NCBI GenBank assembly: GCA_951406725.2
Contig: OX597820.1
Span: 4,092,001-4,156,000 of the forward strand
DNA from: Octopus vulgaris
Lineage: Eukaryota
Direction of reading: 5' to 3'
Length of the DNA stretch: 64,000 bases
Below are positions 915 through 55,459 of this stretch, in pieces (position 1 is the stretch's first letter; each line of letters begins with the position of its first letter). A program made the translations under genes and the position numbers. The notes beneath the pieces were generated by a model. The model saw only the letters and a program-made list of their open reading frames with translations, was not told the origin of the DNA and searched no databases.

Positions 915-1387
915 TATATTATTTACATTTGACGGGTATTTGCCCTCATCTTATTTGTTGTTAACTCAACATTTCAGCTGATATACCCTCCAGCCTTCAT
1001 CAGGTGTCTTGGGGGAAATTTCGAACCTGGGTTCTCATTCCTAAGGTATTTTTCAATGTTATGGGAACTGGTATTAAGAAGGATAGGAAAATATTACATT
1101 TATAAGCCCTAAAAATTCACTTCATAATTGCCCATGGGCATATGGCTTAGTGGTTAACCCCAAGATTCCGAGTTCAATTCCAGGCAGTGACGATGATATG
1201 AAACCATTATTCTATGCTAATTTAGTTAATTTTGTCAAGCTCCCCAACCCTAACAACAACAACAACATCGAAAAATACCTTAGGAATGAGAACCCAGGTT
1301 CAAAATTTCCCCAAGAGAGTATATCAGCCGAAACGTTGCATTAACAACAAACAAGATAAGGACAAATATCCGTCAAATGTAAATAAT
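915..1387 (+). mobile_element. Composite non-autonomous retroelement: inverted arm + tRNA-like head (1136-1191) + forward arm
   Basis: 915-1060 is the reverse complement of 1262-1387. A-box TGGCTTAGTGG and B-box GAGTTCAATTCC lie between the arms. Same architecture as 41900-42236. Confidence 0.7.
963..1008 (-). ncRNA. Degenerate minimal type I hammerhead ribozyme in inverted arm of tRNA-head/HHR element
   Basis: Minus strand reads GACAC CTGATGA A GGCTG gagggtatat CAGCT GAAA TG TT GAGTT. Homologous to the 42148 copy, with mutations in stems I and III. Confidence 0.55.
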
Positions 1388-2548
1388 GTACTTAATCCCT
1401 GGCTATTCTCGTCATTTAAGCTAATTAAGGGTCCAGGCATTAACATTAAAAGAATCTTAATGAAATGGGAGTTACTTTACTGAAATATGGTTCCTGAAAC
1501 ATTTCATGGAATGGCAAAGACACTGGAACATGATGCAGTCCTTGGGCCCATCAGATCCTGTTAAAGCATCTGACTCCCTACCAACATGGAACATGGACAT
1601 AAAATGATGATGTAGTATCATTTTTGTGATATTTTTCAAGTTGTTTTGTGGGATTTTTTATATTCAGAAGCATTCAAAATATTTCTCCTTAATGTCTAAA
1701 AAACAAAAAAGAATGTTCTTGAACCATACGCAAAAAAGGCCATTTTCTGCAGGTTCAGTGGTGGATGTATTCTCCCACTGGATGGAAAGCCGGTCCATCA
1801 GAGGATTATTCTGAGCAGACTGGAGCAAGAATTGAAACCACAATCATGCAATCGTGAGTGCAACACCCTAACCACTGAGCCATGTGCCTCCACATTTATT
1901 TGTATTCTTTTCTACTCTAGGCACAAGGCCTGAAATGTTTTGGGGTGGGAGGGAGCCAGTCGATTAGATCAATCCCCAGTACACAACTGGTACTTAATTT
2001 ATCGACCCCGAAAGAATGAAAGGTAAAGTTGACCTCGGTGGAATTTGAACTCAGAACGTAAAGACAGACGAAATACTGCTGAGCATTTCGCCCATCGTGC
2101 TAACGATTCTGCCACACGCCTCCTTTATTAGTATTACTCTTGTGTCTATACATTTTGTGATAGTGGAGTTGCCGATGGCTAAAAACTACAATTCCTGTTT
2201 AGTTGTGCAATTTTGAAGTTTGCGAAGGTAATGTTTTCTTTGCTGATGGGTTTGTTATGATGATGATGGTGATGGCTTAATATCCTGTCATGTAAGTGAT
2301 AGCCGGGTGCATGGAGCAGAAAGTGATGTATGGTAAATAGTTATTGTACTTAACTCGACCGCTTACGTAAGCTAGAGTCAATTGCTTTATATTACTGTTC
2401 CTTCACTTCTTGTGCTGTCCAGTGGCACAGGGAGGTCAGATGCCCTCGTGGAGAAGCCCTTGTGTTTGCACCCTGCCTCCAAGCCACCAGGTCCTCCCTC
2501 AGTCATAGGCTCGTAAGGCTGGTTTCCTGGATTCTGTGGCATATTCTT

Positions 2549-3268
2549 GAGGGTGGCCATAAATTCACACACCCTCCTGCAATATGGGAAATTGTTAACA
2601 TTCTCCCTTACTTTTTTTAAAATCTCTTTCCACAGCTGCTGATATTACTCACAAACCAATCCTCGTTGGATGGAGTCAAACAATCAACAAGGTGGGGCGT
2701 GGGGGGGGCAAAGGAATGGTGTGGGATTTGGCACAATCATGTAATTGGACCGTTTTATTTTAAGGGCTCTGTGACAGGTGATTCGTATGTGGACCCGGTT
2801 AGCAACTAGATGATGCCTCTCGTGCATTCACTTGGAAAGGGAAATCCTGTCTGGTTTCAGCAGGATGGGGCTCCACCCCCCCCCCCCCATTATGCATTAC
2901 AGGTTCGTGGTTTTCTAAATGAACATTTTCCAAGGAGATGGCTCGGGTGTCACGGGCCAATTGAATGGGCCCCACTGTCACCAGATTTAACTGCCATGGA
3001 CTTTTTCTTCTGGGGCTTCATTAAATCCCTTGTGTATTCTGAAAAGATTCGTGACCAAGGACATCTTCAAAGAATTGTCGAAGCGTGTGAACAAGTCAAA
3101 GGAAATGAAGAGTAATTTGAGAGGGTTCATCGCAATTTCAAATTCCGTATGAACACTTGTTTAGAGCTCCATGGCCAACACTTTGAACGTTTGTAATGGA
3201 TTGCCTACTTCTTTGCTAATAAAGCATACTTGATATCTCCCATGGTGCGTGGCTTTGTGGCCACCCTG
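2549..3268 (+). mobile_element. Internally deleted Tc1/mariner-superfamily transposon
   Basis: Imperfect TIRs (AGGGTGGCCATAAA... / ...TTTGTGGCCACCCTG). ORF 2810-3115 has WFQQDGAP..H and WAPLSPDLTAMDFFFWG (DDD catalytic motifs). Confidence 0.85.
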
Positions 3269-6200
3269 TCTGTTGTAGGATTCCTCGCTTTTGCAAGCTG
3301 AAAGGACTGGAGCAACATGAGATGAAGTGTCTCGCTCAAGAACACAATGCTATGCCCAGTCCAGGTCTTGAAACCACAATCTTAAAATCATCATCGTCGT
3401 CGTTGTTTAACGTCTGCTTTCCATGCTGGCATGGATTGGATGGTTTGAGTGAGGGCTGGCAAGCCAGAAGGCTGCACCAAGCTCCAATCTGATCTGGCAA
3501 AGCTTCTACAGCTGGATGTCCCTCCTAACGCCAACCACTCTGAGAGTGAGCACAATATCCTGATGCAGCAGGCCCAAGCATGCTGCCTCCATAAAAGTGT
3601 GGCCCAGGGCAGACTGCCACCCACCCCCAAGCTATGCTATTGGCATCGTCTCATGATGCTGTGTGCACCAAAGACTCTTCCAATGATGGTGTTTGAGAAT
3701 CTGTTGTGGTGGAGCAGTTGCAACAGTGTTGTTCTTGAGAATTGCAGCAACGATGTCTTTTAGTCATTTACTTGTTCCATTTATTAGATTGTGCCCATGC
3801 TGGGGCATCACATTTGAAAAAGTTTTACTTGAATGAATTGACTCCCGGACTTATTTCTATTGGTGTCTTTTTGTCAAACTGCTAAGTTATAGGGACACAA
3901 ACACACTGATACTGGTTGTATCATTTGGTGGTGGAGGACAAACAGACAGACACACATATATATATCTGTAATATATTTGATGGGCTTCTTTCAGTTTCAA
4001 TTTCAATCTACCAAATCCACTCATAAGGCTTTGGTTGGACCAAGTCTATAACAGGTGCCACACAGTGGGACAGAACTCAGAGCCATGTGGTTGGGAAGCA
4101 AACTTCTTAGCACACAGCCAAGCCTGTAAAAGAGGTCTAAATTTGCATTGGAAAAAATTAATGAAAGCAATAATTTCGAAGTAACCATATTTAATTATTA
4201 CAAATCCTTTACAAAATTTAAGACAGCTTAACAACAAAAACTGGCTGTGTGGTAAGTAGCTTGCTTACCAACCACATGGTTCCAGGTTCAGTCCCACTGT
4301 GTGGCACCTTGGGCAAGTGTCTTCTACTATAGCCCTTGGGCCAACCAAAGCCTTGTGAGTGGATTTGGTAGACAGAAACTGAAAGAAGCCTGTCATTTTA
4401 TGTGTGTGTGTGTGTTTTTGTGTCTGACTTTATCCTTCCATCATTGCTTGACAACCGATGTTGGTGTGTTTACATCCCCCATAACTTAGGGGTTTGGCAA
4501 AAGCGATCGACAGAATAAGTACCAGGCTTATAAAGAATAAGTCCTGGGGTTGATTTCTTAGACTAAAAGGCGGTGCTCCAGTATGGCTGCAGTCAAATGA
4601 CTGAAACGAATAGAAGAATCAAAGAATACCTCTAAAAGTTATCCCAAATTAATTGGGAAAAGTAATTTTTTCGCCTCTGAGCAGAGTTATCTGTGGCTGG
4701 TTGGCCGATCCGGTTTGTTTGGGGGAAGAACAGGATTGGTATTAGTACAAGTTAGTAACCAAATACACCACGATTAAGAACGACTGTCAGTAACTAAGTG
4801 AACGGCACACAAATCTCGTTCCCTACTAGCTGACGAAACGAACCAAGAAAGAGGCCTCTGTGTGGTATCTTGGTATCCTAGAAATAGCAGCCCACCATCT
4901 TTTTTGTCTGTTTTTTGACAAAAGGATACAGGAATGCATGAACTTAAATATACTGTCCGGGTGGGGTGGGGGACAGAAAAAACCCCAAAAACAAATCAAA
5001 GGTAAAAAAAACCCGGAATAATCTCAGCTGGAATGCTTTAAAAGCATGTCAGGGCTTGGCTAGGGTCAAACAACGGAGCTTGGCAAGGAACAAGGAATCT
5101 GTGGGTATTGGAGGAGATGGCGTTGAAGTAGACAACACATGTGAGGTATTTGTCTGTGGGAGTTGCTGCTTAGAAGTTATTTGGGTTACAGAATGGCGGT
5201 TGAGATTCCGCAAAGCTGGAATAGTTGTTAGGCATTTCCATGATTATTGATATCTACGCACAAACAGTGTAGTCTCTACGTAGTCGTTCGACCTGCTGGA
5301 AATAGCAGCCAAATAGCTTTCGATTTCACCCTGCCGTCTTAAAGGGGGAAAGAACACAATTAGGGTAATGTAATCGATTCGGAAGATGTTTCTAAACAGA
5401 TGAGATGGTCACGGCTTGATTGCCTTTGATCACAAGCCTGCTCATTCAGGTCTGAACACCACCAACAGGACTCTATATTTGTGAATGTTTGTATCTTTGT
5501 TTACCAGTTCCTGGACAATGGAACTTTTGTGACATTCGAAAGTCTCCGAACAGAATCATAGTTCTTACAGAATCAAATGATTTGCAATATTTACATTTAA
5601 TTCACGAGTTCTTTTTTAGTCCAAACATTATTAAAGCTGGTTTTATTTAGCATTCCTCTAAAGTCGAAAAACTAACAACCATAAATATATCAAACCCGAA
5701 GTGATCGAATATATTCTTCCTTATAAATAAAGAAATACCAGGTCCCCTGCCTTCTTCCACGCTTCACATGTTTATCCGCTTGACGAAATAAATCTCAAAT
5801 AAATTCTCTCATTTTATTATTAATTTAACCATATTAGATTCTTTTGATTTTTATCAATTTGTAAAGAATCGAAGAATCGCTATTTACTCAGAAAAATCCC
5901 AAAGCTAAACCATTTCGTTTCTCCCAGACGAAGGAAGATCCATGTCTGAGACGCGAGGAGGAATCTCTTCAGAACAAACTTATCCGAATTTACCAACTTT
6001 GCTTAATAATTTAAATCGACACCCAACATCACCAGTTCTTCGAATTTGGCTCTTTTAATCCATACATGAAACGTGATTGCACTTATATATATATATATAT
6101 ATATATATATATATATATATATTATATAAGATATATATATTGGGTGGAGTTGGGGGAGTTTTGGGACAGTTATTCCTTGTTTAAAATAGTTTATTGTTAA

Positions 6201-55124: not shown

Positions 55125-55353
55125 GCGGTGAGCTGGCAGTAACGTTAGCACGCCGGGCGAAATGCGTAGCCGTATTTCGTCTGCCGCTACGTTCTGAGTT
55201 CAAATTCCGCCAAGGTCGACTTTGCCTTTCATCCTTTCGGGTCGATAAATTAAGTACCAGTTACGCACTGGGGTCGATGTAATCGACTTAATCCGTTTGT
55301 CTGTCCTTGTTTGTCCCCTCTGTGTTTAGCCCCTTGTGGGTAGTAAAGAAAAC
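55125..55353 (+). mobile_element. tRNA-derived SINE family B (Meta-domain-like) with 15-bp TSD
   Basis: B-box GAGTTCAAATTCC and central GCCTTTCATCCTTTCGGGTCGATAAATTAAGTACCAG. TSD TATATGTTTACGAAG at 55110-55124 and 55354-55368. Copies at ~1905-2125(-), 20477-20930(+, nested), 22030-22232(-), 31482-31718(-), 42560-42720(-), 57666-57893(-). Confidence 0.85.
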
Positions 55354-55392
55354 TATATGTTTACGAAGTCTAGACAAGTATCTTCAGTTAGC

Positions 55393-55459
55393 AGGCCTTG
55401 CTACTCTAGACTGATGACGGGTAAGACCCAGAAACATGCATGTCTCTAGATACAGGCCT
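55393..55459 (+). ncRNA. Type I hammerhead ribozyme with extended stem I
   Basis: TCTAGA CTGATGA c GGGT aag ACCC a GAAA CATGCATG TC TCTAGA (55405-55450), plus an outer AGGCCT/AGGCCT helix. Palindromic stem III, GUC site. Confidence 0.8.

What the first reader, a model, noticed from the sequence alone, without database searches (positions are those of the whole stretch)
963..55459. About five different hammerhead-ribozyme families within 64 kb
Seen: type I HHR folds (stem I - CUGANGA or variant - stem II - GAAA - stem III - NUH - stem I') at 963(-), 15379(-), 42148(+), 45029(-), 45567(+), 55019(+) and 55405(+). They fall into five sequence-distinct families, most with self-complementary stem/loop III (AACGTT, ACGCGT, ACATGCATGT, CTAG). 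Established: minimal type I HHRs with palindromic loop III occur in Penelope-like pseudo-LTRs and metazoan retrozymes and can cleave as dimers. One copy here sits directly downstream of a GIY-YIG ORF. Inference: this genome carries a diverse, high-copy ecosystem of small ribozyme-bearing elements mobilised by Penelope RT, invisible to ORF-based annotation.
Basis: partly seen in the sequence, partly recalled or inferred. Interest (0 to 1): 0.85.

Follow-up and report, generated by a model that had tools for sequence, protein, structure and literature searches.

The report
Five Penelope-linked hammerhead ribozyme repeat families
The seven predicted self-cutting RNA motifs are real and belong to five repeat families: two are ends of protein-coding Penelope-type jumping genes and three are protein-free repeats likely moved by such genes, a known kind of system, with one oddity, a family whose end repeat begins with a tRNA-derived segment that may act as its promoter.

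Summary
Confirmed. Seven type I hammerhead folds fall into five genome-wide families; a structure scan finds 6 in the window against 0.025 in shuffles. A (963, 42148) and B (15379) are terminal repeats of protein-coding Penelope-like elements (PLEs). C (45029, 45567; 363-nt unit, U3-A8 core) and E (55405; 353-nt unit) look like retrozymes. D (55019) ends a >2-kb microsatellite-rich non-coding element whose tail resembles that of a Hydra-type PLE. C, D and E insert with PLE-type inverted arms. C and E have two fixed 3' ends, and their 5' ends do not fall at the ribozyme cut. Paired changes support the folds of C and E; four of the seven window copies are damaged; cleavage is untested. The window is about 6-7 times denser than a 600-kb genome sample. 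The ecosystem idea is largely in print (Cervera 2014, 2020; Craig 2021; Li 2026). Least known: A's repeat starts with a tRNA-derived segment, 20 of 30 copies begin there, and the 2.6-kb element has no shared four-T run, weak evidence for RNA polymerase III transcription. The scan noted the retrozymes and the tRNA head before, on other DNA of this genome.

The parts
881..1060 (-). Family A, inverted arm of the terminal repeat (pLTR) with the long 3' tail; contains the decayed hammerhead at 963-1008
   Evidence: 90-91% identical to natural long copies
963..1008 (-). Family A minimal type I hammerhead, decayed (loop III palindrome lost, one stem I mismatch)
1061..1392 (+). Family A direct arm: end of the PLE frame, tRNA-like segment, microsatellite, pLTR with the hammerhead core deleted; the whole insertion 881-1392 is flanked by a 13-bp direct repeat (868-880, 1393-1405)
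   Evidence: read
15207..16119 (-). Family B, 5'-truncated 3' end of a PLE
15710..16195 (-). GIY-YIG endonuclease frame with a CX4CxxC linker (stop-to-stop frame; homology to the family ends at about 16119)
   Evidence: Pfam E 0.0026, below cut-off
15376..15422 (-). Family B type I hammerhead; non-palindromic stem III
41905..42003 (-). Family A inverted partial arm with the hammerhead internally deleted
42004..42080 (+). tRNA-derived segment with A-box- and B-box-like motifs at the 5' end of the family A pLTR
   Evidence: aligns in register with the genome's own tRNA genes, 0 of 300 shuffles as good; not called by ARAGORN or Rfam in other copies
42081..42237 (+). Family A trinucleotide microsatellite and pLTR body
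42148..42193 (+). Family A minimal type I hammerhead
44816..45273 (-). Family C inverted arm (long 3' end, unit position +238); unit positions 4-41 are replaced by a TA run, leaving the hammerhead at 45029-45067 with 4 of 6 stem I pairs
45292..45778 (+). Family C direct arm, 1.3 units of the 363-nt repeat (short 3' end, +176); the insertion lies in a TA microsatellite
45567..45608 (+). Family C canonical type I hammerhead with U3-A8 core and palindromic stem III, intact
   Evidence: (z -2.88 with the helix I extension)
52170..52268 (-). Family D inverted 3' end with the long tail, next to a TA microsatellite
   Evidence: 100% identical to the end of L105
52270..55086 (+). Family D non-coding, TG/TA-rich body, interrupted by an unrelated abundant repeat at about 54054-54632
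55019..55068 (+). Family D type I hammerhead (weak stem II, 4-bp stem III, A at position 17), identical to most copies
55354..55671 (+). Family E, 0.9 of a 353-nt unit ending at the long fixed 3' end (+227)
55405..55450 (+). Family E canonical type I hammerhead with a 10-nt palindromic stem III; mismatch at the base of stem II in this copy

Best explanation
The seven motifs are hammerhead folds carried by five repeat families: A and B are terminal repeats of protein-coding Penelope-like retroelements, and C, D and E are protein-free repeats likely copied into the genome by Penelope-type enzymes. Shown: the folds, the families, the link of A and B to PLE reading frames, the inverted and tandem arms, two fixed 3' ends 57-63 nt apart in C and E, long and short 3' ends in D, TA-microsatellite flanks at the window's C and D insertions, and paired stem changes between lineages of C and E. 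Inferred from the Anolis Poseidon work (PMC11167929): the PLE protein binds a site 3' of the hammerhead, nicks both DNA strands and starts reverse transcription at two internal RNA sites; this would give the short and long 3' ends of the two arms and the scattered 5' ends. Inferred: C and E RNAs cut themselves, probably as dimers through the palindromic stem III, and are copied from multimers or circles (arms reach 3.8 units). D is likely a passenger of Hydra-clade PLEs. The ribozyme cut does not set the 5' ends of insertions, so selection on the fold likely acts on the few master RNAs, while most genomic copies decay. In A the repeat starts with a tRNA-derived segment that likely marks the RNA start, so most short copies are solo terminal repeats that look like SINEs.
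For: A: the 25 loci fetched with upstream DNA show RT and GIY-YIG frames ending just before the tRNA-like segment, microsatellite and hammerhead (RVT_1 E 1.4e-10), and the repeat runs on into the N-terminus of the next frame. B: homology runs upstream into RT-thumb and GIY-YIG frames. C: of 49 arm 3' ends not cut by a locus edge, in 25 locus rows (L062 and L168 are the same insertion, so 24 insertions; 7 overlapping loci dropped), 21 lie at +172 to +177 and 23 at +232 to +238; 5' ends spread over 43 positions, none at the cut site. E: of 36 arm ends in 26 loci, 9 lie at +169 to +173 and 17 at +223 to +228. Tails: D-F alignment score 46 against a null mean of 21.9 (0 of 1000), C-E 36 against 19.0 (2 of 1000), C-H 28 against 16.9 (9 of 1000); the other 18 of 21 pairs were not notable. 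F matches the Hydra RT motifs printed in the supplement of PMC8557442. Covariation: E, 5 of 20 pairs changed on both sides in 20 copies; C, its older subfamily and family H, 6 of 13 pairs in 6 distinct rows, including the 3-8 core pair. Predicted homodimers of C and E take the double-hammerhead shape.
Against: No cleavage, RNA end or circle was observed. No autonomous element sharing a pLTR with C, D or E was found in 1.6 Mb of loci, and the one chimeric lead (L002) proved to be two abutting families. Pair counts reflect few lineage events, and related sequences can beat the shuffle control without structure; in E, pair 10.1-11.1 is unpaired in 11 of 20 copies. Six of seven monomer folds are no more stable than shuffles, and predicted dimers of A and B do not take the hammerhead shape. 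A core-versus-flank test was biased by how copies were picked and is inconclusive. In Xenopus only 1 of 9 predicted retrozyme dimers cleaved in vitro (bioRxiv 10.64898/2026.07.22.740005).
Confidence: 0.85

Rival explanations
1. C, D and E are not separate passengers but solo or tandem terminal repeats of autonomous PLEs whose coding part I did not sample.
For: This is what A and B turned out to be. Li et al. 2026 found 21 Repbase PLEs matching Xenopus retrozyme families. My searches score only the 40 best candidates, which for young families are all short copies.
Against: Shared sequence in 30 C loci and 25 E loci stops at the unit. Complete head-to-tail units close on themselves with no coding DNA. 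D's shared sequence extends about 1.8 kb upstream with no shared reading frame in 15 ten-kb stretches.
Confidence: 0.2
2. The hammerheads are vestigial passengers: real folds inherited from PLE ancestors but no longer needed for copying.
For: Insertion 5' ends ignore the cut site. Core mutants did not impair insertion by Anolis Poseidon in vitro (PMC11167929). Naiad PLEs spread without canonical hammerheads (PMC8557442). Most window copies are damaged.
Against: Compensated stem changes and the C3-G8 to U3-A8 swap between lineages imply selection on the fold in master RNAs, and the youngest families (C, D) keep intact folds.
Confidence: 0.15
3. Family A short copies are an independent SINE with its own master genes, not by-products of the autonomous element's transcripts.
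For: 20 of 30 copies start at the tRNA-like segment, and a few columns differ in frequency between ORF-linked and short copies. Only 3 of 38 head-to-tail copies contain a run of four T.
Against: No column has a different commonest letter between 22-23 ORF-linked and 28-41 short copies, and the short set was chosen by similarity to one copy. The same segment sits in place in the ORF-linked copies. Internal priming at the 5' repeat of a full transcript would also give such copies.
Confidence: 0.35
4. The motifs are chance matches in repeat-rich DNA.
For: No hammerhead family appears among the 150 Rfam rows shown for the window (143 lower rows not shown).
Against: 6 hits against 0.025 expected; each site belongs to a multi-copy family whose commonest form has better stems; A fits the published minimal consensus (supplement of PMC4209133).
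Confidence: 0.01

Closest known systems
Minimal hammerheads in pLTRs of metazoan Penelope-like elements (Cervera and de la Pena 2014, PMC4209133; read parts 1-2 of 4 and supplement passages)
   Same: A and B: extra nucleotide before stem II, G10.1-C11.1 in the family, short helices I and III, position next to RT and GIY-YIG frames, opposite-strand pairs, many families per genome. The U3-A8 core was reported there in Schistosoma PLEs.
   Different: No octopus entry in the one supplementary file that could be searched (one file not searchable). Here U3-A8 occurs in a canonical-shaped hammerhead of a tandem non-coding unit (C). B lacks the palindrome.
Metazoan non-LTR retrozymes (Cervera and de la Pena 2020, PMC7229834, parts 2-4 of 6; Li, Clavereau and Pollet 2026, bioRxiv 10.64898/2026.07.22.740005, parts 1-3 of 5)
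   Same: C and E: 350-365-nt units, canonical type I hammerhead, tandem copies, no protein, coexisting with PLEs; coral has 16 hammerhead families and more than 6000 motifs. PLE mobilisation is proposed in both papers.
   Different: Circular RNA is not shown here. The two fixed 3' ends with inverted arms were not described for retrozymes in the parts I read. No homologous autonomous pLTR was found for C or E.
Anolis Poseidon PAc (Frangieh et al. 2024, PMC11167929; parts 1-2 of 4)
   Same: Hammerhead at the start of the reading frame, two reverse-transcription start sites that produce the tail, AT-rich targets; A has this layout.
   Different: No tRNA-like segment is mentioned for PAc in the parts read. 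Tails here are 57-71 nt (C, E, D, F) against 30-40 bp described.
Hydra-clade PLEs, including Hydra-1_Obim (Craig et al. 2021, PMC8557442; passages, section 11, supplement search)
   Same: TA-microsatellite targets and hammerheads; family F (L167) has the Hydra RT motifs, and D's tail resembles F's.
   Different: D has no reading frame and is mostly microsatellite-like sequence; its hammerhead differs from the one listed for Hydra-1_oBim.
Schistosome SINE-like hammerhead repeats (as reviewed in PMC6765202; passages only)
   Same: An RNA polymerase III promoter followed by a hammerhead, as proposed for A.
   Different: In A the tRNA-like segment lies in place inside a protein-coding PLE, between the stop codon and the hammerhead. 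The review passages name no such link.

Membership tests
Type I hammerhead ribozyme | Conserved core and NUH site closed by stems I-III, open at stem I | tested here: met
   met by all five families, damaged in several window copies
Type I hammerhead ribozyme | Stems kept by compensating changes | tested here: met
   E 5 of 20 pairs; C/C2/H 6 of 13 pairs; few lineage events; not run for A, B, D
Type I hammerhead ribozyme | Self-cleavage after NUH | not testable with these tools
   no raw RNA reads or assay
Minimal PLE hammerhead (A, B) | Extra nucleotide before stem II and G10.1-C11.1 pair | tested here: met
   against the consensus in the supplement of PMC4209133; B has G at the extra position
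Minimal PLE hammerhead (B) | Palindromic helix or loop III | tested here: not met
   B's stem III is not self-complementary across copies; met by A, C and E
Endonuclease-bearing Penelope-like element (A, B) | RT followed by C-terminal GIY-YIG, with a hammerhead-bearing terminal repeat | tested here: met
   A; B: (GIY-YIG match below Pfam cut-off; only the RT thumb region seen)
PLE clade (A Penelope/Poseidon; B Neptune or Nematis; F Hydra) | Placement in an RT phylogeny | not tested
   assigned only from linker motifs and RT motifs described in PMC8557442
PLE-type insertion (A, C, D, E) | Inverted or tandem arms with a one-sided 3' tail | tested here: met
Non-LTR retrozyme (C, E) | 150-450-nt tandem non-coding unit with a canonical type I hammerhead | tested here: met
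   363 and 353 nt; no shared reading frame
Non-LTR retrozyme (C, E) | Expressed as linear and circular monomer RNA | not testable with these tools
   no run on record as RNA was listed
Non-LTR retrozyme (D) | Short tandem unit of a few hundred bases | tested here: not met
   shared body of about 2 kb; works like a non-autonomous PLE but is not filed as a retrozyme
tRNA-derived SINE (A short copies) | tRNA-derived head with internal promoter boxes at the 5' end | tested here: met
   5 of 5 heads align in register with genomic tRNA genes, 0 of 300 shuffles each; 20 of 30 copies start within -20 to +15; ARAGORN 0 of 18 loci and no Rfam tRNA hit
tRNA-derived SINE (A short copies) | Own master lineage, separate from the autonomous partner | tested here: inconclusive
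   no diagnostic column; biased sample
tRNA-derived SINE (A short copies) | Transcription by RNA polymerase III | not testable with these tools
   only indirect T-run counts

The most novel reading that the evidence does not exclude
Family A is a protein-coding Penelope element read end to end by RNA polymerase III from a captured tRNA promoter. Its uncapped 2.6-kb RNA has purged four-T terminators, the hammerhead at the start of the reading frame enables cap-independent translation (as reported for viral hammerheads in PMC13725137), and internal priming at the 5' repeat sheds thousands of SINE-like solo repeats.
Probability: 0.2. Interest if true: 0.82.

Novelty: new variant of a known kind. 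Interest (0 to 1): 0.42.

Why it matters
Many hammerhead families tied to PLEs in one animal genome is an established pattern, so the headline is ordinary. Three things make it useful. Young, nearly identical C and D copies give exact predicted reverse-transcription start sites, and D points to Hydra-clade enzymes, so the proposed but unproven mobilisation of retrozymes by PLEs becomes directly testable. A natural U3-A8 core in an amplifying canonical hammerhead can be assayed. And if family A uses RNA polymerase III, it would show a route from an autonomous PLE to a SINE and a possible translational role for the PLE hammerhead, whose function is still open.

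Tried and rejected
Rfam scan of the window: the 150 rows shown are microsatellite noise with no hammerhead family; 143 lower rows were not shown. RF00163 in the genome gave 6 matches among 73 scored, none in the window. My first descriptor missed all sites because it was too strict. My first parse of C (a lengthened core) was replaced by the U3-A8 parse. 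The idea that arms begin at the ribozyme cut was rejected for C and E. The idea that the PLEs in L167, L168 and L261 are the autonomous forms of D or C was rejected: each has its own end and sits in or beside the passenger. L002 was two abutting families. Core-versus-flank conservation (A 0.05 against 0.126, B 0.062 against 0.084) is biased, because copies were picked by a pattern spanning the core; not used. Expression: no RNA holder listed. Contigs of three runs only guessed to be RNA cover the C unit and show no shared molecule ends; contigs cannot show ends, so this is no evidence either way. ARAGORN and Rfam did not call the A head a tRNA. Its source tRNA is unresolved: the 25 distinct genes compared cover only 6 amino-acid types, and Thr or Arg scored best. 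The full 5' extent of D, the long/short pairing of its arms and a genome-wide count of U3-A8 cores remain open. Lunse et al. (PMC5785218) is not held; I saw only its citation and a review's summary. Searches for prior description: hammerhead+Penelope+octopus, Penelope+tRNA-derived+SINE+hammerhead, Penelope+RNA polymerase III+retrotransposon+pLTR, hammerhead+U3-A8+natural, cephalopod+ribozyme+genome+retrotransposon. None listed a paper that, by title or abstract start, describes a tRNA-headed pLTR. The library lacks most subscription papers and Repbase, and the bioRxiv supplements are closed, so prior annotation cannot be excluded.

Full report
Setting. The window is G000:C7:4092001-4156000 of a 2.8-Gb animal assembly, rich in microsatellites and retroelements. 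The organism was not determined; earlier scan notes call it an octopus, and one PLE found here shares RT motifs with Hydra-clade elements that include an octopus family.

Observation. All seven sites have a type I hammerhead layout. A descriptor allowing C3-G8 or U3-A8 cores finds six of them in the window, against a mean of 0.025 in 40 shuffles and none in the complement control; 963(-) is a decayed member of the 42148 family. Five genome searches recover five separate families. The alignments show that the commonest family forms have better stems than several window copies. The seven sites are six insertions, since 45029 and 45567 are the arms of one.

How typical is the window? Sixty evenly spaced 10-kb stretches (600 kb) gave 15 descriptor hits, against 0-1 in eight shuffles. 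They lie in 7 stretches by the printed list (one search used 8 for its estimate). The window has five insertions with hits in 64 kb, about 6-7 times denser; it was picked for that, so no probability is claimed. Stretches with family sequence in the sample were A 5, B 1 (by its hammerhead), C 4, D 1, E 0. That extrapolates to about 23,000 A (7,600-54,000), 19,000 C (5,100-48,000), and 4,700 each for B and D (120-26,000). A looser descriptor over all 1.63 Mb then held gave 281 hits in 22 clusters, 12 of them at two or more loci and four of those with U3-A8 cores. That sample is biased to my families, includes overlapping loci and had no shuffle control of its own.

Family A. Loci fetched with upstream DNA show RT and GIY-YIG frames ending just before a tRNA-like segment, a trinucleotide microsatellite and the hammerhead (RVT_1 E 1.4e-10). 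After the repeat the sequence runs into the N-terminus of the next frame, as in Anolis Poseidon, where the frame starts in the hammerhead (PMC11167929). A is therefore the pLTR of a PLE, Penelope/Poseidon-like by its lack of a zinc-finger linker (not treed). Its hammerhead fits the published minimal consensus. The insertion at 881-1392 has an inverted arm with tail and a 13-bp target duplication.

The tRNA-like segment. Five of five natural heads align in register with the genome's own tRNA genes better than any of 300 shuffles, though ARAGORN (0 of 18 loci) and Rfam do not call it. Of 30 copies chosen by the downstream body, 20 begin within -20 to +15 of the tRNA start, 3 extend further upstream, none begin at +16 to +74, and 7 begin at +75 or later, some split by insertions into the microsatellite. 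Across the 2.6-kb element, 62 aligned pieces (72.7 kb) have 16 shared three-T sites and no shared four-T site; nine other coding elements (a tenth query gave no alignment) had four-T sites in eight cases. This is weak evidence. A's own run-extension ratio gives about P 0.04 (0.82 to the 16th power, my arithmetic); codon tests on one 342-codon stretch gave P 0.16 and 0.037; G runs are depleted too; and the three near-complete copies with a 5' hammerhead do not reach the head. No column separates ORF-linked from short copies, so solo pLTR and independent SINE are not distinguished. I favour solo pLTR, a reading taken from an earlier scan note and checked only in part.

Family B is the truncated 3' end of another PLE. 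The GIY-YIG frame at 15710-16195 has a CX4CxxC linker of the Neptune/Nematis kind, the hammerhead lies about 290 nt downstream, and longer copies extend into RT-thumb sequence. Copies are 72-90% alike, so it is old. It has no palindromic stem III.

Families C and E. Units of 363 and 353 nt close head to tail with no reading frame. Both have canonical 6-bp and 4-bp helices with a helix I extension; C has a U3-A8 core, reported before in minimal Schistosoma PLE hammerheads (PMC4209133). C is very young (99-100% identity); E is about 90%. Arm 3' ends cluster at two points (C +175 and +238, 44 of 49 ends; E +171 and +228, 26 of 36), usually one of each per C insertion, while 5' ends scatter and avoid the cut site. 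C and E share their terminal sequence (P 0.002 among 21 pairs). Stems are kept by double changes in E (5 of 20 pairs) and among C, its older subfamily and a third tandem family H (6 of 13 pairs including the 3-8 pair); these rest on few lineage events. Predicted homodimers of C and E take the double-hammerhead shape; as monomers only 45567 is unusually stable.

Family D is a young element (99-100% identity at its 3' end) with about 2 kb of TG/TA-rich non-coding body (period-2 match 0.62 against 0.34 in the sample). In the window it runs from an inverted long tail at 52170 to 55086 between TA runs. Its 3' end after the cut site aligns with that of a Hydra-type PLE (score 46, null 21.9, 0 of 1000), which points to Hydra-clade enzymes. 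Its full 5' extent is open.

Mechanism. Shown: folds, families, PLE linkage of A and B, insertion geometry, covariation in C and E. Inferred: PLE protein starts reverse transcription at two internal sites from both nicked strands; C and E RNAs self-cleave, probably as dimers, and are copied from multimers or circles; the ribozyme matters in master RNAs, not at integration. Against: no cleavage or expression data, no sequence-sharing autonomous partner for C or E, and 8 of 9 predicted Xenopus retrozyme dimers did not cleave in vitro (Li et al. 2026).

Comparison. Multi-family hammerhead sets with PLEs are described (PMC4209133; PMC7229834, 16 families in a coral), PLE origin of retrozymes is argued in a 2026 preprint, and an octopus Hydra-clade hammerhead is tabulated in the supplement of PMC8557442. 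What I saw of each paper: PMC4209133 parts 1-2 of 4 and supplement passages; PMC7229834 parts 2-4 of 6; the Li preprint parts 1-3 of 5 and passages (supplements closed); PMC11167929 parts 1-2 of 4; PMC8557442 passages, section 11 and supplement hits; PMC6765202 and PMC13725137 passages only; Lunse et al. nothing but its citation and the review's summary. My searches listed no paper that by title or abstract start describes a tRNA-headed pLTR. Hammerhead numbering and the A-box/B-box notion are from my own knowledge.

Verdict. Real, and mostly a known kind of system in an animal group little surveyed for it. The variant features are the tRNA-headed pLTR, the U3-A8 retrozyme and the long microsatellite-rich Hydra passenger. 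The scan has noted the retrozymes, the two fixed ends and the tRNA head on other DNA of this genome. Interest 0.42.

Noticed in passing
L171:2100-4790 (G000:C1:20002100-20004790): A further retrozyme-like family (H): inverted plus tandem array of a 353-359-nt unit, seven canonical hammerheads with C3-G8 core, between TA microsatellites.
   Followed up: partly
L167:3362-6874: Near-complete Hydra-type PLE (F) with its own hammerhead, inverted 5' repeat and 71-nt tail, inserted inside a family D element.
   Followed up: partly
L168:4564-8892: Inverted pair of another PLE 3' end (GIY-YIG) whose 3' region appears to hold a hammerhead with a very long stem II, read by eye; a family C insertion abuts it.
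   Followed up: no
L207:9716-9839; L111; L181:1904-2013; L197:3687-3804: Tiny head-to-head insertions of D and F ends whose arms begin at or near hammerhead stem I, a possible fold-back footprint unlike the scattered 5' ends of C and E.
   Followed up: no
L039, L188, L274 and related loci: At least three more multi-locus hammerhead families with U3-A8 cores.
   Followed up: no
window 749-828: A further remnant of the family B 3' end just before the family A insertion.
   Followed up: no
window 14215-14270: Short remnant of the family A body next to a trinucleotide run.
   Followed up: no
window 10764-12329 (-): 521-codon open frame of a LINE-type reverse transcriptase (RVT_1 E 5.8e-33) with a weak PHD-finger match inside it.
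   Followed up: no
L024, L036, L224: Another repeat ending in a trinucleotide tail sits in the family A microsatellite, separating head from body; family A copies may serve as its landing sites.
   Followed up: no
L165:767-1161: Inverted pair of a different element whose end is about 80% like the C/E terminal sequence; its body and any hammerhead were not traced.
   Followed up: no
L169:2793-3770 (-), just upstream of the window: 326-codon frame ending in what looks like a SOCS-box motif (recalled, not searched); probably a host gene exon.
   Followed up: no
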